Shown piece by piece: positions 3,258-60,205 of a stretch of 64,000 nucleotides of DNA. The position numbers were made by a program, and so were the translations under genes. Every line of letters starts with the position of its first letter. The stretch's first letter is position 1. This stretch comes from Squalus acanthias (Eukaryota), in NCBI GenBank assembly GCA_030390025.1, contig CM059432.1, positions 1,116,001 through 1,180,000 of the forward strand. The letters are read 5' to 3'. The notes under the pieces were generated by a model. That model had not been told where the DNA came from and did not search any database. It saw only the letters and a list, made by a program, of their open reading frames with translations.

Positions 3258-3416
<159 letters not shown>

Positions 3417-7541: not shown

Positions 7542-7951
7542 ACAGAAACTGATAGCCAAGTTCCGCACTCATGAGGATGGCCTCAATCGCGATATCGGGT
7601 TCATGTCACGATACAGAACGTGACTTGACATCATGGCCGGTCTTTCCAGGTGTTTTTTTTTTTTTAAAAAGACTAACACAAGAACCAACACAAATTGACA
7701 GGATATGCAGCCAGCAGGTGTTTTGACACGTTGGACCCCCTGGGACACATCTCATTGTCTTGGCTGTGCTCTTAGTGTGTCTTTGATGTAGGGAAAGATT
7801 TGAATAGATTTTTTCTGTGCTTATATTGTGAAATCTGGGAGATTCTCTCACAGCTACTCTACCTGAGGAAGGAGCGAACAGCTCCGAAAGCTTGTAAAAT
7901 TAAATAAATCTGTTGGACTATAACCTGGTGTTGTGCGACTTCTCATTTTTG
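7542..7951 (+). mobile_element. Penelope-like family B 3' end
   Basis: 7540-7623 encodes EQKLIAKFRTHEDGLNRDIGFMSRYRT* (PLE GIY-YIG C-terminus). 12-bp TSD tccttcaaagga at 7530-7541 and 7952-7963. Inserted in an old Deu-SINE. Confidence 0.85.
7860..7896 (+). ncRNA. Minimal type I hammerhead ribozyme motif (PLE family B)
   Basis: UAC-CUGAGGA-A-GGAGC(GAACA)GCUCC-GAAAGCU-U-GUA. Confidence 0.75.
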
Positions 7952-9050: not shown

Positions 9051-10020
9051 TTTCTCCCAGGTTGGGTATACTGTAGCCCAGCTTGCTGCAGAATAAAACC
9101 CTTGAACTTTGCCCCAATCTTTCAGCATCCTGTCCTGCTCCAGTGTTACACTTCCCCATTTCCCAGCATGATGTTAATTAGCGGCATTTTGATGCGGTTC
9201 TTGCACCACGAAGAACCAGATTAAGAGGCCAATCTCATTGCAGGAAGGACTCGTGGATTGATTTTGATCTCTAGTCCCCTTTAATTTTTGTTTGTAATAT
9301 CCACCATTTTACATTGGAAAAACTGGCCCAAAACTAAGATGTGTTTTATTGTGAAGACACTTATAGATGCAAAATCACAGTTGAAGACAATCTACAGCAC
9401 AGGTTTTTAAAAAGTTTGAAAACCAAACTGGAACTAGACTCTGCCAGCTACTAAGTAGGGTCCTGTCAAAGTAACTGGTGGGAAGAAGAGCTATTAAGCA
9501 AAAGTTGGTGTGTTCTACTTTAATGTGGCACTTGAAGCCTCTTCAGAGCAGTTGAGAGCTACTGTGTAGGTAGATTGTGATGCTGCATGGTGAAACTGAG
9601 TCATCAGGCGATAAACTGGAATCAGTGAGTTATGTTGGTCTGCAAGCATGTACAATTCCACAAAAATAATCATGCATCATTTTCATGTTGGCTAAAGTTA
9701 TGATCAGAAGGGGTCCTCTGGACTAGTACGAATAACTGGCAAGTCCTTGCTCGCCAACAAACCAGTGGCGTTCTGGAAAAATATTATGCAGAGTTAGTCA
9801 GCTGTGGCTCAGTGGGTAGCACTCTCGCCACTGAGTCAGAAGGTTGTGGGTTCAAGTCTCACTCCAGAGACTTGAGCACAAAAAGCTAGGTTGACACTCC
9901 AGTGCAGTGCTGAGGGAGTGCTGTATTGTCGGAGGTGCCGTCTTTCGGATGAGATGTTAAACCGAGGCCCCGTCTGCTCTCTTGGGTGGATGTAAAAGAT
10001 CCCATGGCACTATTTTGAAG

Positions 10021-10229
10021 AAATCGCACAACACCAGGTTTTCGTCCAACAGCTTTATTTGAAATCACAAGCTTTCGGAGCGCTGCTCCTTCGCAGGTCA
10101 CTTCACCTGACGAAGGAGCAGCGCTCCGAAAGCTTGTGATTTCAAATAAAGCTGTTGGAGTATAACCTGGTGTTGTGCAATTTCTCACATTTGTCCACCC
10201 CAGTCCAACACCGGCATCTCCACATCATG
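10021..10229 (+). mobile_element. Penelope-like family B fold-back insertion
   Basis: Inverted arms ~10020-10098 and 10105-10184, ~45-nt tail, imperfect 12-bp TSD actattttgaag/actatttcaaag. Confidence 0.85.
10103..10139 (+). ncRNA. Minimal type I hammerhead ribozyme motif (PLE family B)
   Basis: UCAC-CUGACGA-A-GGAGC(AGC)GCUCC-GAAAGCU-U-GUGA. Confidence 0.8.
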
Positions 10230-12629: not shown

Positions 12630-13165
12630 GGAAATAAAAACAGAAAATGCTGGAAATACTCAGCAGATCAGGCAGCATCTGCGGAGAGAGAAACCGAGTT
12701 AACGTTTCAGGTCGATGACCTTTCGTCCGAACGGGAAAAGGTTTAAGATGGAACAGGTTTTAAGCAAGTACAGAGGCAGGGAAAGGGGGGAGGGGAGGGA
12801 AGATCTGTGATAGGATGGAAGGCGGGAGAGATTAAATGACAAAAGGTATGATGGTAAAGAAACAAAAGGTGGGTTTAGAGGGGGTGTAAATGGGAATGGC
12901 AGAATCATCAGCAACAGCTGCTGTCAAAAAAATGGGGGTGGAGGTTATGATCTGAAATTATTGAACTCATTGTTGAATCCAGAAGGCTGTAAAGTGCCTA
13001 ATCGAAAGATGAGGTGCTGTTCCTCGAGCTTACGTTTGAGCTTCATTGGAACAGTGTAGGAGGCCGAGGACAGAGATGTCAGAGTGGGAATGGAGTGGAG
13101 AATTAAAGTGACAGGCGACCGGAAGCTCGGGTTCACGCTTGCGGACTGAATTGGAACTGAGGTGT
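12630..13165 (-). mobile_element. Penelope-like family A 3' end
   Basis: KLEEQHLIFRLGTLQPSGFNNEFNNFRS. The hammerhead core is mutated (CGGACGA). Confidence 0.8.
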
Positions 13166-40846: not shown

Positions 40847-41071
<225 letters not shown>

Positions 41072-41344: not shown

Positions 41345-44300
41345 TCGAGCTCATCTTGTCCGTAAGACCCACCCTGCTCTCGCGACCCTATTCCCACTAA
41401 ACTATCCTCGCCTGGTTCCACTCTTGCCTATCCAGTCGTAGCTAGAAATTCCCGTTGCCTCTGGGGTTCCCCCAAGGATCTATCGATAGGCCCCTCCTAT
41501 TTCTTATCTACATGCTGCCCCTCGGTGACCTCATCCAAAAACACAACATCAGGTTCCACATAAACGCTGACGACACCGAGCTCCTGCTGACAATTACCTT
41601 TCTCGACCACGCCACTGTCTTGTTGTCAGACTGTTTGTCCAACATCCAGTCCCACATAGAAACATAGAACAGTACAGCACAGTACAGGCCCTTCGGCCCT
41701 CGATGTTGTGCCGAGCATTGTCCGAGACCAAGATCAAGCTATCACACTCCCTATCACTCTGGTGTGCTCCATGTGCTTATCCAATAACCGCTTGAAAGTT
41801 CCTAAAGTGTCCGACTCCACTATCACAGCAGGCAGTCCATTCCACACCCCAACCACTCTCTGAGTAAAGAATCTACCTCGGACATCCCTTCTATATCTCC
41901 CCCCATGCACCTTATAGTTATGCCCCCTTGTAACAGCTGCCTCTACCCGAGGAAATAGTCTCTGAACATCCACTCTATCTATCCCCCTCATCATCTTATA
42001 AACCTCTATTAAGTCGCCTCTCATCCTCCTCCGCTCTAAAGAGAAAAGCCCCAACTCCCTCAATCTTTCCTCATAAGACCTCCCCCCCCAAACCAGGCAG
42101 CATCCTGGTAAATCTCCTTTGCACTCTTTCCAATGCTTCCACGTCCTTCCTATAGTGAGGTGACCAGAACTGCACACAATATTCCAAATGTGGTCTCACC
42201 AAGGTCCTGTACAGTTGCAGCATAACCTCACGGTTCTTAAACTCAAACCCTCTGTTAATAAACGCCAACACACCATAGGCCTTCTTTACTGCTCTATCCA
42301 CTTGAGTGGCAACCTTCAGAGATCTGTGGATATGAACCCCCAGATCCCTCTGCTCCTCCACGTTCCTCAGAACCCTGCCGTTGACCCTGTAATCCTTATT
42401 CAAATTTGCCCTACCAAAATGAATCACCTCGCACTTATCAGGGTTAAATTCCATCTGCCATTTTTCGGCCCAGCTCTGCATCCTATCAATGTCTCTTTGC
42501 AGCCTACAACAGCCCTCCACCTCATCCACTGCTCCACCAATCTTGGTGTCATCAGCAAATTTACTGATCCACCCTTCAGTCCCCTCCTCCAAGTCATTGA
42601 TAAAAATCACAAACAGCAGAGGACCCAGCACCGACCCCTGTGGCACACCGCTGGTAACTGGTCTCCAGTCCGAAAATGTTCCATCCACCACCACCCTCTG
42701 CCTTCTATGAGATAGCCAGTTACTTATCCAATCGGCCAAATTTCCCTCTATCCCACAACTCCTTACTTTCTTCATGAGACGACCATGGGGAACCTTATCA
42801 AACGCCTTACTAAAATCCATGTATACGACATCAACTGCTCTACCTTCATCTACACACTTAGTTACCTCCTCAAAGAATTCAATCAAATTTGTTAGGCAAG
42901 ACTTACCCTTCACGAATCCGTGTTGACTATCCCTGATTAAGTTGCCCCTTTCCAAATGGTCATAAATCCTATCCCTCAGGACCTTTTCCATTATCTTACC
43001 AACCACCGAAGTAAGACTAACCGGCCTATAATTACCAGGGTCATTCCTATTTCCTTTCTTGAAGAGAGGAACAACATTCGCCACTCTCCAGTCCTCTGGC
43101 ACCATCCCCGTGGACAGTGAGGACCCAAAGATCAAAGCCAGAGGCTCTGCAATCTCCTCCCTTGCCTCCCAAAGAATCCTAGGATATATCCCATCTGGCC
43201 CAGGGGACTTATCGACCCTCAGGTTCTTCAAAATTGCTAAAACATCTTCCCTCAGAACATCTACCACCTCCAGCCTATCCACCTTTATCACACTCTCATC
43301 CTCAAGAACATGGCCCCTCTCCTCGGTGAACACTGACGAAAAGTATTCATTCATCACCTCTCCTATCTCTTCTGACTCCATGCACAAGTTCCCACTACTG
43401 TCCTTGACCGGCCCTACCCTCACCCTGGTCATTCTTTTATTTCTCACATAAGAGTAAAAAGCCTTGGGGTTTTTCTTGATCCGACCCGCCAAGGACTTCT
43501 CATGCCCCCTCCTAGCTCTCCTAAGCTCTTTTTTTAGCTCATTCCTTGCTACCTTGTACCCCTCAATCGACCCAACTGAACCTTGTTTTCTCATCCTTAC
43601 ATACGCTTCCTTTTTCCTCTTGACTAGACATTCAACCTCTTTTGTGAACCATGGTTCTCTCACTCGGCCATTTCCTCCCTGCCTGACAGGGACATACCTA
43701 TCAAGGACACGCAGTAATTGCTCCATGAAAAAGCTCCACTTTTCGTTTGTGCCTTTCCCTGATAGTTTCTGTTCCCATCTTATACTCCCTAATTCTTGCC
43801 TAATCGCATCATAATTACCCCTCCCCCAATTATAAACCCTGCCCTGCCGTATGGCCCTATCCCTCTCCATTGCAATAGTGAAAGTTACCGAATTGTGGTC
43901 ACGATCTCCAAAGTGCTCTCCCACATACAAATCAAACACTTGGCCCGGTTCATTACCCAGTACCAAATCCAACGTGGCCCCACCTCTTGTCGGCCTATCC
44001 ACATATTGTGTCAGGAAACCCTCCTGCACACACTGTGCAAAAACTATCCCATCCGAACTGTTTGACCTATAAAGGTTCCAATCAATATTTGGAAAGTTGA
44101 AGTCACCCATGACAACTACTCTGTGACCTCCACACCTATTCATAATCTGCTTTGCAATTTCTTCCTCCACATCTTTATTACTATTTGGGGCCTGTAGAAA
44201 ACTCCTAACAACGTGACCGCTCCTTTCCTATTTCTAACTTCAGCCCATATTACCTCAGACGGCAGATCCCCCTCGAACTGCCTTTCTGCCGCTGTTAAAC

Positions 44301-46630: not shown

Positions 46631-47091
46631 GCAAAAGCAAAATACTGCAGATGCTGGAAATCTGAAATAAAAACAAAAAATGCTGGAAATACTCAGCAGG
46701 TCAGGCAGCATCTTTTTTGTTTATTCATTCACGGGATGTGGGCGTCGCTGGCAGGGCCAGCATTTATTGCCCATCCCTAATTGCCCTTGAGAAGGTGGTG
46801 GTGAGCCACCGTTGCAGTCCGTGTGATGAAGGTACTCCCACAGTGCTGTTCGGGAGGGAGTGCCAGGATTTTGACCCAGCGACGATGAAGGAATGGTGAT
46901 GTATTTCCAAGTCAGGATGGTGTGAGACTTGGAGGTGGTGGTGTTCCCATGAGCCTGCTACCCTTGTCCTTCTAGGTGGTAGGGGTCGCAGGTTTAGGAG
47001 GTGCTGAATCGATCGACCTGAAACGTTAACTCGGTTTCTTTCTCCGCAGTTGCTGCCTGACCTGCTGAGTATTTCCAGAATTTTCTTTTTT
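46631..47091 (-). mobile_element. PLE family A fold-back insertion containing a LINE family C fragment (~46713-47006)
   Basis: Tail plus arm on the left, inverted arm on the right. 16-bp TSD actccacttttctgat/actccacatttctgat (46615-46630, 47092-47107). Confidence 0.8.
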
Positions 47092-48718: not shown

Positions 48719-49456
48719 CTGAGATGTGGGTGTCACTGGCAAGGGCAGCATTTATTGCCCATCCCTAATTGCCCTTGAGAAGGTGGTGGTGAGCCGCCTT
48801 TTTGAACTGCTGCAGTCCGTGTGGTGAAGGTACTCCCTTAGTGCTGTGAGGGAGTTCCAGGATTTTGACCCAGCGGCGATGAGGGAACAGCAATATATTT
48901 CCAAGTCAGGATGGTGTGTAACTTGGAGGGGAATTTGGAGGTGATGGTGCTCCCATGCGCCTGCTGCCCTTGTCCTTCTAGGTGATAGAGGTGCTGTTAA
49001 AGTTAGGTTAGGCCCCAGCTCGAGTATTGTGGCCAATTCTTGCTCTTCCCTATCTCTGTAACCTCCTCCAGCCCTACAATCCTCGATCTCTGCGCTCCTC
49101 CAATTCCGGCCTCTTGCGTATCCCCTATTTTAATCACTCCAGCTGCCTAGGCCCTAAACTCTGGAATTACCTCCCTAAATCTTTCCATGTTTCTCTCCTC
49201 TTAAGACGCTCCTTAAAACCTAGCTTTTGGTCAGCTGTCCCTCCTTGTGTGGTTCGGTGTCAAATTGTGTCGATAATCTTTCCAGTGACGCTCCTTTGGA
49301 TGTTTTACTACATTAAAGGCGCTATATAACTGCAAGTTGTTGTTGCAGGCAGAGATGAGCCTCTGCGGCATACCCCTGCTGTGTCACACTGTTGCCTCGC
49401 TGCTGTTCCTTCCTTTGATCTTGTCGCAGTTTATGATCAATATGATTAAAGTCCCA

Positions 49457-49524
49457 AATAACAACAGAAAACGCTGGAAAAACTCAGCAGGCGAGGCAGC
49501 ATCCGTGGAGAGAGAAAGTCCCAG
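49457..49524. mobile_element. Single-arm PLE family A remnant
   Basis: Near-identical to the start of the 59246 left arm; 14-bp direct repeat tgattaaagtccca (49443-49456, 49525-49538). Confidence 0.75.
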
Positions 49525-50209: not shown

Positions 50210-51620
50210 GGGGCAAAAGCAATGCTGGGAATCTGAAATAAAAACAAAATGCTGGAAATACTCAGCAGCTCAGGCAGCATCTGTGAAGAGAGAAACAGTT
50301 AACGTTTCAGGTCGGTAACCTTACATCAGAACTCTAAAAAGTTAGAGATGTAACCGGTTTTAAGCAAGTACCGATGCAGGGAAAGGGAGGAGGGGAGGAA
50401 AGAACAAAAGGGAAGGTCTGTGATGGGGTAGAAGGTAGGAGAGATTAAATGACAAAAGGGAAGATGGTGCAAGGCAAAAGAGGGTGGTAATGGGACAAGT
50501 AAATAAGCAAAAGATGGGTCGAGAGGAGGTGTAAATGGTAACCACAATCATTACCAGCACCTGCTGTCTGGAAAAAATGGGCGCGGTGGTTATGATTGCT
50601 GAACTCCATGTTGTAAAGTGCCTAATCGAAAGATGAGGTGCTGTTCCTTGAGCTTCGTTGGAACATTGTAAGTGGCTGAGGTCAGAGTGGGAGTGGTGCA
50701 GAGAATTAAAATGACAGGCAACAGGAAGTTCAAGATCACGCTTGCAGTCCACTGAGGTATTCCACAAAGCGATCACCCAATCTGCATTTGGTCTCTCCTA
50801 ATATAGAGGAGACTGCATTGTGAGCAGCGAATACAGTGCACTAAATTGCAAGAAGTACAATTAAATCACTGTTTCACCTGGAAGGAGTGTTTGGGGCCCT
50901 GGACGGTGGGAAGAAAGGAGGTAAAAGGGCAGGTGTTGCATGTCCTGCGTTTGCACGGAAGATGCCGCGGGAAGGGGAGTGGGCTTTGGGGGTGGTTGAG
51001 GAGTGGACCAGTGGTCGCGGATTGAACGGTCCCTTTGGAATGCTGAAAGAGGAGGGGAAGATGTGTTTGGTGGTGGCAGAAATGGTGGAGGATGATCCAT
51101 TAAATGTGGAGGCTGGTGGGGTGGAAGGTGAGGACAAGGAGAACCATATTGTGGTTCTGGGAGGGAGGGGAAGGGGTGAGAGCAGAAGTGTGGGAAATGG
51201 GATGAAAATGGTCGAGGGCCATGTCAACCACGGTCGAGGGGAATCCTCGGTTGAGGATAAAGGATGACCTATCGGAAGCACTGGTATGGAAGGTGGCATC
51301 ATCAGAACAGATGCGACGGAGAAACTGGGAGAATGGAGTAGAGCAGCGGTTCCCAACCTTTTCCTTCATGCAGACCACCAGCCGTTTAAAAATTGCTTCT
51401 GTGAACCACCAGCCGTTTAAAATTTTTTAACAGCCTATGGCTGACGGGAGTCAAACTTATATATTTTTTTTCACGGACCACCTGCAGTACCCTCGCGGAC
51501 CACAGGTTGGGAAACGCTGGAGTAGAGTCCTTCCAGGGAGCTGGGTGGGAGGAAGTGTAGTCAAGGTAGCTATGTGGGTCAGTGAGCTTAGAGTTGGGGG
51601 ACCCAGGTTTCTGTGCATTT
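50210..51620 (-). mobile_element. Penelope-like family A, 1.4-kb degenerate copy
   Basis: HSYLDYTSSHP, PFSQFLRRICSD and LPVACHFNS motifs, then pLTR with mutated hammerhead (CUGAUGU). Confidence 0.85.
51344..51519. mobile_element. hAT (Charlie-like) MITE, 176 bp
   Basis: TIRs cagcggttcccaacct / aggttgggaaacgctg. Perfect 8-bp TSD gagtagag. Confidence 0.9.
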
Positions 51621-53049: not shown

Positions 53050-53975
53050 TTTTTTTTAAATTCATTCTTGGGATGTGGGCGTCGCTGGCAAGGCCAGCAT
53101 TTATTGCCCATCCCTAATTGCCCTTGAGAAGGTGGTGGTGAGCCGCCTTCTTGAACCGCTGCAGTTCATGAGGGGAAGGTACTCCCACAGTGCTTTTAGG
53201 GAGGGAGTTCCAGGATTTTGATCCAGTGATGAAGGAACAGAGATATATTTCCAAGTCCTGATGGTGTGTGACTTGGAGGTGGTGGTCTTCCCATGCGCCT
53301 GTTGCCCTTGTCCTTCTAGGTGGTAGAGGTCGCAGGTTTGGGAGGTGCTGTCGTGGAAACCTTGGCGAGTTGCTTCAGTGTATCTTGTAGATGTTACACA
53401 CTGCAGCCACGTTATGCCGGTGGTGGAGGGAGTGAATGTTTAAGGTGGTGGATGGGATGCCAATCAAACGGGCTGCTTTGTGCTGGATGGTGTCGAGCCT
53501 CTCATTCTGATCAAGCACTGGATTTCGAAAGACGCTGCATTCATCCAGGCAAGGGGAGAGTATTCCATCACACTCTTGACTTGTGCCTTGTAGATGGTGG
53601 AAAGGCTTTGGGGAGTCAGGAGGTAAGTCACCTGCCACAGAATACCCAGCCTCTGACCTGCTCTTGTAGCCACAGTATTTATGTGGCTGGTCCAATTAAG
53701 TTTCTGGTCAATGGTGACCCCCCCCCAGTATGTTAATAGTGACCCCCCAGTATGTTGATGGTGGGGAATTGGGCAATGGTAATGCCATTGAATGTCAAGG
53801 GGCGCTGGCTAGACTCTCGCTTGTTGAAGAAAGTCATTGCCTTGCACTTGTGTGGCGCGAATGTTACTTGCCACCTATCAGCCCAAGCCTGAATGTTGTC
53901 CAGGTCTTGCTGCATATGGGCACGGACTGCTTCATTATCTGAGGAGTTGCGAATGGAACTGAACACTGCAATCAT
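53050..53975 (-). mobile_element. CR1-group LINE family C 3' region
   Basis: QQDLDNIQAWADRWQVTFAPHKC and IYKAQVKSVMEYSPLAW motifs; A-rich tail at ~53050. Confidence 0.85.
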
Positions 53976-58764: not shown

Positions 58765-60205
58765 ATCTGTCCCTGCCTCAGCTTTTCTGCTGCTGAAACC
58801 CTCATCCATCTCTTTGTTACCTCTAGAGTCGACTATTCCAATGCTCTCCTGGCCGGCCTCCCACCTTGCACCTCCATAAAGTTGAGCTCACCTAAAACTC
58901 TGCTGCCCTAATCCTAACTTGCACCAAGTCCCGTTCACCCATCCCCCTTGTGCTTGCTAACTTGCTACATTGGCTCCCAGTCCGGCAACACCTCGCTTTT
59001 TAAATCTCTCATTCTTGTTTTCAAACAAGAGCAGGTCAGAGGCTGGGTATTCTGCGGCAAGTGTCTCACCTCCTGACTTTCCAAAGCCTTTCCACCATCT
59101 ACAAGGCACAAGTCAGGAGTGTGATGGAATGCTCTCCACTTGCCTGGATGAGTGCAGCTCCAACAACACTCGAGAAGCTTGACACCATTCAAAACAAAGC
59201 AGCCTGCTTGATTGGCACCTCATCCACCACCTTAAACATTCACTCATAACAACAGAAAACGCTGGAAAAACTCAGCAGGCCAGGCAGCATCCGTGGAGAG
59301 AGAAAGAGAGTTAACGTTTCAGGTCGATGACCTTTCATCTGATGAAAGGTCATCGACCTGAAACGTTAACTCTCTTTCTCTCTCCACGGATGCTGCCTGG
59401 CCTGCTGAGTTTTTCCAGCGTTTTCTGTTGTTATTTCGGATTTCCAGCATCCGCAGTATTTTGCTATCGTTAAACATTCACTCCCTCCACCACCGGCATA
59501 CCGTGGCTGCAGTGTGTACCATCTACAAGATGCACTGCAGCAACTCCCAAACCCGCAACCTCTACCACCGAGAAGGATAAAGGCAGGAGGCACATGGGAA
59601 CACCAGCACCTCCACGTCACACACCATCCTGACTTGAAAGTGTATTGCCGTTCCTTCATCGTTGCTGGGTGAAAATCCTGGAAAACTCTCCCTAACAGCA
59701 CTGTGGGACAAATGCTGCAGCGGTTCAAGAAGGCGGCTCACCACCACCTTCTCGGGGGCAATTAGGGATGGGCAATAAATGCTGGGACTTGCCAGTGATG
59801 CCCACATCCTGTGAATGAATTAAAAAAAAAAAAAATCCCTCCATGGCCTCGCTCCTCCCTATCTTTGTAATCTCCTCCAGCCTGCAACCCTCAGCGATCT
59901 CTGCGTTCCTCCAATTCTGGCCTCTTGCACTGCCCTGGTTTCCATAGCCCCCACCATTGGCGGTCGTGTTTTTAGCTGCCTAGGCCATAAGCTCTGGAAT
60001 TCCCTCCCTAAACCTCTCCGCCTTTCTACCTCTCTCTCCTCATTGAAGGACGCTCCTTAAAACTCCCCTCTTTGACCAAGCTTTTGGTCATCTGTCCTAA
60101 TATCTCGATGTGGCTTGGTGTCAAATTGTGTTTGATAACGCTCCTGTGAAGCACCTTGAAATGTTTTACTACGTTAAAGGTGCTATATAAATGCAAGTTG
60201 TTGGA
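58765..60205 (+). mobile_element. L2 3' end split by LINE family C (~59025-59835)
   Basis: Host cttgttttcaaa|tccctccatggcc is reconstituted after removing the insert, which ends in poly(A). Confidence 0.85.
59246..59469 (+). mobile_element. PLE family A perfect fold-back insertion with hammerhead core
   Basis: Identical 94-bp inverted arms (59246-59339, 59341-59434), 35-nt tail and perfect 14-bp TSD ttaaacattcactc. Confidence 0.92.

What the first reader, a model, noticed from the sequence alone, without database searches (positions are those of the whole stretch)
59232..59483. Perfect 94-bp fold-back Penelope mini-element centred on a hammerhead core
Seen: zero-mismatch arms around a single T (59340), a 35-nt tail and a perfect 14-bp TSD, so the insertion is very recent. 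The axis lies inside the core: the + strand reads CUGAUGA-A-AGGUC(AUC)GACCU-GAAACGU-U-AACU from 59339, but the 5' strand of stem I (AGUU) is replaced by the mirror arm. Established: PLE pLTRs contain minimal hammerheads, and Penelope insertions can have inverted pLTRs with a short tail. Inference: with 10021, 46631 and 49457, this suggests a recurrent ORF-less product class that plants perfect hairpins in introns. Such hairpins could be Dicer/ADAR substrates yielding siRNAs against the parent PLE, and DNA cruciforms. This is the best candidate for an undescribed system here.
Basis: partly seen in the sequence, partly recalled or inferred. Interest (0 to 1): 0.75.

Follow-up and report, generated by a model that had tools for sequence, protein, structure and literature searches.

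The report
Double-primed Penelope leader palindrome in intron
This perfect 189-base DNA palindrome in an intron is one of many head-to-head stubs of a very abundant Penelope-like jumping gene, a known insertion layout, and the pattern across copies suggests it likely forms when both cut DNA strands copy the same short front end of the element's RNA and the two copies pair at their tips.

Summary
It is a stub of a Neptune/Nematis-type Penelope-like element (894-aa RT + GIY-YIG frame; 15,871 or more copies). Inverted copy + one-sided tail + TSD is the published layout. It is not a self-copying mini-element. The same axis recurs at 48 sites on several haplotypes, with T or A at the centre 24:23. 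The tail-less arm often runs further than the tailed arm (23 of 32), so it cannot be a fold-back copy of it. Copy ends pile up at the 5' edge of the hammerhead, about 30 nt below a TATA-like box, not at the cut site. A second family does the same. Best reading: both nicked strands prime at two RT start sites, run off the likely transcription start and anneal by microhomology. The hammerhead is truncated and predicted to be locked in the hairpin. siRNA or ADAR roles are untested. The scan reported this before, in this genome and others.

The parts
59232..59245 (+). Target-site duplication, left copy (14 bp)
   Evidence: 13-17 bp duplications flank nearly all sister copies
59246..59339 (-). Tail-less arm: element positions about +4 to +97 (0 = first T after the CAG that precedes the hammerhead), inverted; likely the cDNA primed at the inner RT start site
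   Evidence: inverted arms end at +93 to +101 in 28 of 32 unbiased copies
59338..59342 (.). Axis TC-T-GA: a natural 2-bp mini-palindrome at +1 to +5 of the element, the likely annealing microhomology
   Evidence: 48 exact genomic copies; T or A on the tailed strand 24:23, one copy with no tail
59339..59371 (+). Minimal type I hammerhead motif lacking most of the 5' strand of stem I; predicted cut after 59367 (GUU; other copies GUC)
   Evidence: direct reading; stem II pair probability about 0 in the palindrome against 0.92-0.94 in the native leader
59341..59434 (+). Tailed arm; with the tail it is the 5' leader and start of the parent's reading frame (43 open codons from ATG 59342)
   Evidence: 127 of 129 identical to long copies L122 and L123; frame runs on into the ORF in partial-tandem copy L125
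59435..59469 (+). 35-nt one-sided 'tail', likely the stretch between two RT start sites
   Evidence: 76 of 78 exact-axis palindromes carry exactly one tail, 2 none, 0 two; PMC11167929
59470..59483 (+). Target-site duplication, right copy
59025..59800 (.). Older interspersed repeat into which the stub inserted (LINE-like, label recalled)
   Evidence: the joined flanks align at 80% over 590 bp with window 53082-53667
40922..41050 (+). Upstream exon of the host gene (Iml2/TTC39 family; 'TTC39C' is recalled); a downstream exon lies just past the window end, so the stub is intronic
   Evidence: PF10300 positions 40-75, E 2e-6; positions 102-225 at G000:C8:1180348
49456..49518 (-). Same family: tail-less 63-nt solo stub with its own 14-bp TSD; no hairpin
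46631..47091 (.). Same family, older head-to-head copy with tail on the left, split by another repeat; 16-bp TSD (15 of 16)
10019..10229 (.). Head-to-head stub of a second hammerhead-bearing family, axis again at the 5' edge of stem I

Best explanation
This is a head-to-head stub insertion of an abundant Penelope-like retrotransposon, likely made when the element's protein nicked both DNA strands 14 bases apart, each nicked end likely primed reverse transcription at one of two start sites 35 bases apart in the RNA's 5' leader, both cDNAs likely ran off the RNA's 5' end, and their tips likely annealed across the TC-T-GA mini-palindrome. Shown: the anatomy, the parent (RT + GIY-YIG), the end pile-up, two classes of 3' end, the symmetric axis and arm concordance. 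From print: PAc cuts and extends both strands and has two internal RT start sites that bracket the tail. Inferred: the pile-up is the transcription start (about 0.7); both cDNAs usually come from one RNA molecule or one source gene; the joint forms by annealing with a central A-A mismatch repaired either way. The product is likely a dead end, with no promoter, no ORF beyond 43 codons and a hammerhead predicted to be locked in the hairpin.
For: (1) Parent: L122 holds an 894-aa open frame with RVT_1 (E 2e-5) and GIY-YIG (E 3e-4), both under the Pfam cut-offs. It is itself a palindrome with 2,361-bp 100% arms, a one-sided tail and a TSD, so the layout holds at any length. (2) Two 3' ends: 13 of 30 arm-end hits are tailed and 17 tail-less, some of them solo copies (window 49457). 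(3) In 32 inverted insertions from 100 copies picked by the tail junction only, the tail-less arm reaches further 5' in 23, the tailed arm in 7, equal in 2. A fold-back of the tailed strand cannot outrun its template, and a fold-back of the tail-less strand cannot supply a tail. (4) Axis base T:A = 24:23 over all 48 TC-T-GA sites; second axis type 16:13 in 30 of 94 sites. (5) Exactly one tail in 76 of 78, and arms agree at family-polymorphic sites (8 of 376 discordant against 91.6 shuffled; 10 of 278 against 27%): the two primings are coupled. (6) Pile-up: exact genome counts fall 10,290 to 8,253 to 6,604 when the pattern is extended from +4 to -1 to -6 (20% per 5 nt), but only 5,206 to 5,056 from -6 to -11 (3%). 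21 of 30 ends within 60 nt of the site lie at -4 to +4 (P 1.5e-17); 1 of 82 ends lies near the predicted cut site at +31. (7) An A/T-rich TTAAA box at about -29 and an initiator-like CCAGTTC in this family; TATATA at -30 to -32 with the same pile-up (9 of 16 ends at -2 to +4) and no AG acceptor in the second family. (8) PMC11167929 (parts 1-2 of 4 and passages read).
Against: No 5'-end RNA data: the transcription start is inferred from DNA. In this family the site is also a good 3' splice site (pyrimidine tract + CAG in nearly all long copies). In D. virilis the start lies 46 nt above a 75-nt intron whose end maps to helix I (PMC2377424 passages; PMC4209133), and that promoter is TATA-less. 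High arm concordance is also what fold-back or later gene conversion would give. PAc showed no difference in start site between strands in vitro, which does not by itself explain one tail per insertion. 50 of the 100 sampled copies were left out of the end statistics (45 with neither TSD nor inverted arm found, 5 with an inverted hit that did not reach +55). The sample comes from the first 30 Mb of contig C1.
Confidence: 0.68

Rival explanations
1. Single-strand fold-back or self-priming: one cDNA (or an antisense template, as proposed by Arkhipova et al. 2013) hairpins at the mini-palindrome and copies itself; the tail arises from endonuclease resolution.
For: Arms are nearly always the same haplotype; L122 arms are identical over 2,361 bp; junctions sit on mini-palindromes; proposed in PMC3846280 (Discussion read).
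Against: The tail-less arm is longer in 23 of 32; tail-less solos exist; in 23 of 47 the axis base can only have been templated on the tail-less cDNA; a 1-nt loop is not a foldable hairpin (general knowledge). A hybrid, with two primed cDNAs and one snapping back, is not excluded.
Confidence: 0.12
2. Two-ended priming is right, but the stop site is a splice acceptor or an RNA-structure barrier rather than the transcription start.
For: Conserved pyrimidine tract + CAG right at the site; the D. virilis intron ends at helix I (PMC4209133).
Against: 0 of 16 stubs carry upstream element sequence joined to the site; 8 TSD-flanked solos abut target DNA directly at -4 to 0; the second family has the pile-up with a clear TATA box and no AG.
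Confidence: 0.11
3. A self-propagating palindromic non-autonomous mini-element (MITE- or retrozyme-like) copied as a unit from a master.
For: Many near-identical dispersed copies; the exact 224-nt unit also lies at G000:C4:112179694 with other flanks.
Against: Only 48 + 94 exact-axis copies among 15,871 or more family ends; both axis types and both orientations occur on several haplotypes; axes vary from +40 to -574; no promoter in the unit.
Confidence: 0.04
4. One reading: intronic perfect hairpins act as Dicer or ADAR substrates that silence the parent element, as a selected host system.
For: The stub lies in an intron of a + strand gene, folds into a 94-bp duplex and matches the parent's leader at 127 of 129 bases. 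Penelope elements draw small-RNA responses in rotifers (PMC3846280, mostly piRNA-sized).
Against: The structure is fully explained as an insertion by-product. No sign of selection was tested or seen. The family reached more than 15,000 copies. Incidental editing of long nuclear duplexes is expected and is not a function (general knowledge).
Confidence: 0.05

Closest known systems
Insertion unit of endonuclease-bearing Penelope-like elements: inverted 5'-truncated copy + 30-40-bp one-sided tail + TSD (Pen2a_Av, PMC3846280, passages and Discussion; Craig et al., bioRxiv 10.1101/2021.04.23.441226, passages; D. virilis Penelope, PMC2377424, part 1 and passages)
   Same: Head-to-head layout, palindrome at the junction, 35-nt tail on one side, TSD, hammerhead in the pLTR.
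   Different: Here both halves are cut down to the 5' leader and stop at one fixed site; those papers invoke self-priming or endonuclease resolution, not two run-off cDNAs.
PAc, Poseidon element of Anolis carolinensis (Frangieh et al. 2024, PMC11167929, parts 1-2 of 4 and passages)
   Same: Two internal RT start sites inside the ORF bracketing the tail; both strands cut and extended; hammerhead overlapping an ATG with the cut 26 nt downstream (same spacing here: ATG 59342, cut after 59367); uncleaved RNA as template.
   Different: The parent here has the CX4CxxC linker of the Neptune/Nematis type. The passages read do not link the two start sites to head-to-head palindromes or to a fixed 5' stop.
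Minimal type I hammerheads of metazoan PLEs (Cervera and de la Pena 2014, PMC4209133, parts 1-2 of 4)
   Same: Core CUGAnGA/GAAA, extra base before stem II, palindromic CG in place of stem III; pairs of motifs on opposite strands 100-700 bp apart were already noted.
   Different: This copy lacks most of stem I's 5' strand and is predicted to be sequestered in the long hairpin.
Non-LTR retrozymes (bioRxiv 10.64898/2026.07.22.740005, part 1 and passages)
   Same: ORF-less, hammerhead-bearing, derived from PLE pLTRs.
   Different: Retrozymes are head-to-tail tandem arrays with a complete hammerhead in each unit; this is a single head-to-head stub with an incomplete motif.
L1 twin priming (recalled, not read here)
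   Same: Both target strands prime on the element's RNA and the cDNAs join by microhomology, giving an inversion.
   Different: In L1 the two pieces do not overlap; here both copy the same stretch, which gives a perfect palindrome.

Membership tests
Endonuclease-bearing Penelope-like element insertion | Parent with one ORF, RT followed by C-terminal GIY-YIG | tested here: met
   L122, 894 aa: RVT_1 E 2e-5 and GIY-YIG E 3e-4, both below the curated cut-offs; DKG motif and a CxxC before YIG visible; stub 127 of 129 identical to it
Endonuclease-bearing Penelope-like element insertion | pLTR with hammerhead motif, partial-tandem copies | tested here: met
   L125: inverted pLTR, pLTR, tail, ORF, pLTR, tail
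Endonuclease-bearing Penelope-like element insertion | Adjacent inverted 5'-truncated copy, one-sided 30-40-bp tail, TSD | tested here: met
   76 of 78 with one tail
Neptune/Nematis clade | CX2-5CxxC linker between RT and endonuclease | tested here: met
   CX4CxxC upstream of the endonuclease in the 894-aa frame; criterion
Neptune/Nematis clade | Placement in an RT phylogeny | not tested
   no reference PLE proteins were fetched
Minimal type I hammerhead ribozyme | Catalytic core nucleotides and stem II | tested here: met
   59339-59367; no Rfam match at gathering score
Minimal type I hammerhead ribozyme | Stem I closing the motif | tested here: not met
   three of four 5'-strand bases are replaced by the mirror arm; stem II pair probability about 0 in the palindrome
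Minimal type I hammerhead ribozyme | Self-cleavage | not testable with these tools
   needs an in vitro assay; only 1 of 82 genomic ends lies near the cut site
Non-LTR retrozyme | Head-to-tail tandem units, each with a complete hammerhead | tested here: not met
   single head-to-head unit between TSDs
Self-copying non-autonomous mini-element (MITE-like) | Fixed unit with one junction inherited by its copies | tested here: not met
   axis type and orientation vary across haplotypes; axes from +40 to -574; asymmetric tail
Endogenous hairpin siRNA locus | Phased 21-23-nt reads from the arms | not testable with these tools
   only contigs of public runs were on offer

The most novel reading that the evidence does not exclude
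A Penelope protein dimer loads on one capped RNA whose first nucleotides form the hammerhead. It primes both ends of a staggered cut at two fixed sites 35 nt apart and makes two overlapping strong-stop-like cDNAs that pair at their tips. The tens of thousands of stubs would then be a genome-wide fossil map of the transcription start and of the two priming sites, explaining the long-unexplained inverted-plus-tail layout of PLEs. Intronic ones could also feed double-stranded RNA against the parent's leader.
Probability: 0.5. Interest if true: 0.55.

Novelty: new member of a known kind. Interest (0 to 1): 0.33.

Why it matters
As a locus it is ordinary, one of many stubs in a known layout. The value is in the copy statistics. 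How PLEs make inverted, tailed insertions is described in print as unresolved (Craig et al. 2021). The 24:23 axis symmetry, the one-tail rule (76 of 78), arm concordance and a fixed stop 30 nt below a TATA-like box in two families give sharp predictions for the existing PAc in vitro system. In the searches run here I found no paper stating this model; most subscription journals and Repbase reports are outside that library. Earlier unreviewed notes of this scan reached the same reading in this and other genomes.

Tried and rejected
Rfam scan of the window: 0 matches. Laying four runs on the locus: uninformative, because the flanks and arms are high-copy repeats; neither raw support nor presence/absence polymorphism could be judged, and no A-to-G change was listed, which proves nothing with contigs. 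Laying three guessed-RNA runs and one DNA run on the pLTR of L121: summed depth steps up at the pile-up site (about 8-10x in the RNA-guess runs, 3x in DNA) and no GT..AG joint to that site was listed. Contigs cannot show starts, other subfamilies diverge upstream, and RNA status is a guess, so I did not count this as evidence. The first genome search with the whole palindrome is biased to the same axis and was not used for axis statistics. Hammerhead cleavage as the cause of the axis: rejected, since the predicted cut is 27 nt from the axis and ends do not collect there. Assembly artefact: unlikely given the TSD and 48 dispersed copies of the same axis with their own TSDs. The candidate first exon at 3261-3416 gave no relevant Pfam hit. 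Literature searches for siRNA from Penelope hairpins and for shark Penelope palindromes gave only reviews, seen as listings. Supplements of the papers were not read; Fig. S2 of PMC11167929 may bear on where genomic 5' ends fall.

Full report
Observation. The element is as described: arms 59246-59339 and 59341-59434 with no mismatch, T at 59340, a 35-nt tail and a 14-bp TSD. It is the only perfect palindrome with arms of 12 or more in the window and folds at z = -29. The + strand carries the hammerhead core from 59339; Rfam does not score it. It sits inside an older repeat (joined flanks 80% alike to window 53082-53667), in an intron of a + strand Iml2/TTC39-family gene: an exon at 40922-41050 matches PF10300 positions 40-75, and one just past the window matches 102-225. 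The genome is 3.7 Gb; 'shark-like' is my recall from the repeat types and the wording of earlier notes, not a tool result.

Family and parent. A 31-nt arm/tail junction occurs exactly 15,871 times and a 34-nt arm-end motif 22,414 times. Extending eight long copies gave L122, which holds an 894-aa open frame with weak RVT_1 and GIY-YIG hits and a CX4CxxC linker. Craig et al. give that linker as the mark of Neptune/Nematis rather than Penelope/Poseidon; no tree was built. L122 is itself a palindrome with 2,361-bp identical arms, one tail and a TSD. The stub's arm + tail matches L122 and L123 at 127 of 129 bases and is the start of the reading frame: 43 open codons, continuing into the ORF in the partial tandem L125. 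Many copies have ACG in place of that ATG (42 against 36), so the true start codon may be the next in-frame ATG.

Is the axis random? No. I took the 100 listed junction hits (98 loci, first 30 Mb of C1), chosen without regard to axis. Of these, 32 have an adjacent inverted arm reaching +55 or more (30 with TSD) and 18 are TSD-flanked solos; the other 50 were left out. With 0 as the first T after the CAG, 21 of the 30 ends within 60 nt lie at -4 to +4 (P 1.5e-17), and 1 of 82 ends lies near the predicted ribozyme cut at +31. Genome-wide exact counts agree: 10,290 (from +4), 8,253 (from -1), 6,604 (from -6), against a control step of 5,206 to 5,056 (from -6 to -11). Upstream lie TTAAA at about -29 and an initiator-like CCAGTTC, but also a pyrimidine tract + CAG. 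The second family in the window (10021 type; 51,625 matches) helps decide: TATATA at -30 to -32, no AG, and 9 of the 16 ends that fell inside the aligned stretch at -2 to +4 (14 of 30 ran past it). None of 16 stubs carries spliced-on upstream sequence. I read the site as the transcription start at about 0.7. Against this, D. virilis Penelope has a TATA-less internal promoter and an intron ending at helix I.

One cDNA or two? Tailed and tail-less 3' ends both occur (13 and 17 of 30), and tail-less solos exist, including window 49456-49518. The tail-less arm goes further 5' than the tailed arm in 23 of 32 and the reverse in 7. All 48 sites with this exact axis were examined: the tailed strand has T at the centre in 24, A in 23, and one has no tail. 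Since the RNA has U there, the A class must take its centre from the tail-less cDNA. A second axis on the neighbouring mini-palindrome (94 sites) splits 16:13, with one tail-less, in the 30 examined. This is what pairing of two equivalent cDNA tips predicts. The primings are coupled: 76 of 78 have exactly one tail and none has two. Arms share polymorphic bases far beyond chance (8 of 376 discordant against a shuffled mean of 91.6; 10 of 278 against 27% in the unbiased set). A few pairs differ at diagnostic sites (5 of 76 at +37; L235/L236), so two RNAs or later conversion occur at times. Both axis types and both orientations appear on several haplotypes, which rules out one self-copying master.

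Mechanism. From print: PAc cuts and extends both strands, is predicted to be a dimer, starts RT at two internal sites that bracket the tail, and does not need hammerhead cleavage. Inferred here: priming in the RNA's 5' leader gives two short run-off cDNAs, which anneal across TC/GA and are filled in, leaving the TSD. In the finished palindrome stem II has about zero pairing probability, against 0.92-0.94 in the native leader, so the motif is predicted inactive on top of lacking stem I.

Function. Nothing here tests siRNA, editing or cruciform formation. The read tools offered contigs only and the locus is not unique. An intronic 94-bp duplex would likely be edited incidentally (general knowledge), but a selected defence role is not needed to explain the structure.

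Comparison and novelty. The layout is published, and opposite-strand hammerhead pairs were noted in 2014. It is not a retrozyme. My searches found no paper stating the two-run-off model, within the library's limits. Earlier unreviewed notes of this scan describe the same structures and reading in this genome and in others. One note gave me the start-site idea before I tested it; the counts above are my own. Verdict: real, a new member of a known kind, of modest interest for the mechanism it records (0.33).

Noticed in passing
L122 (G000:C1:23184909-23193909): 5.4-kb head-to-head insertion with 2,361-bp arms that are 100% identical, a one-sided tail and a TSD; the tail-less arm carries an 894-aa open RT + GIY-YIG frame.
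   Followed up: partly
window 10019-10229 and 7861-7943; L239-L268: Second hammerhead-bearing family (51,625 exact 28-mer matches) with a clear TATA box about 30 nt above the same kind of end pile-up and the same tailed/tail-less pairing; its parent ORF was not examined.
   Followed up: partly
window 12631-12796, 50222-50408, 1477-1587, 50612-51343: Further, older fragments of the same Penelope family, including about 780 bp of the ORF at 81% identity.
   Followed up: no
L034, L037, L095, L100, L104, L119 and others: A subfamily has C at hammerhead position 17 (GUC triplet) where this copy has U (GUU); the initiating ATG inside the core is ACG in about half of the copies.
   Followed up: no
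L015, L021, L028 (palindrome centres): Some junctions carry an extra G just 5' of position -1 where long copies have A; possibly a copied cap or a non-templated base.
   Followed up: no
window 3261-3416, 40922-41050; G000:C8:1180348: Host gene of the TTC39 family on the + strand with very long, repeat-rich introns; 64% of the window matches other fetched loci.
   Followed up: partly
window 42071-44227 (-): 718-aa open frame of a LINE-type reverse transcriptase (CR1-like, label recalled).
   Followed up: no
L145, L183: Two exact-axis palindromes with no tail on either side; none with two tails among 78.
   Followed up: no
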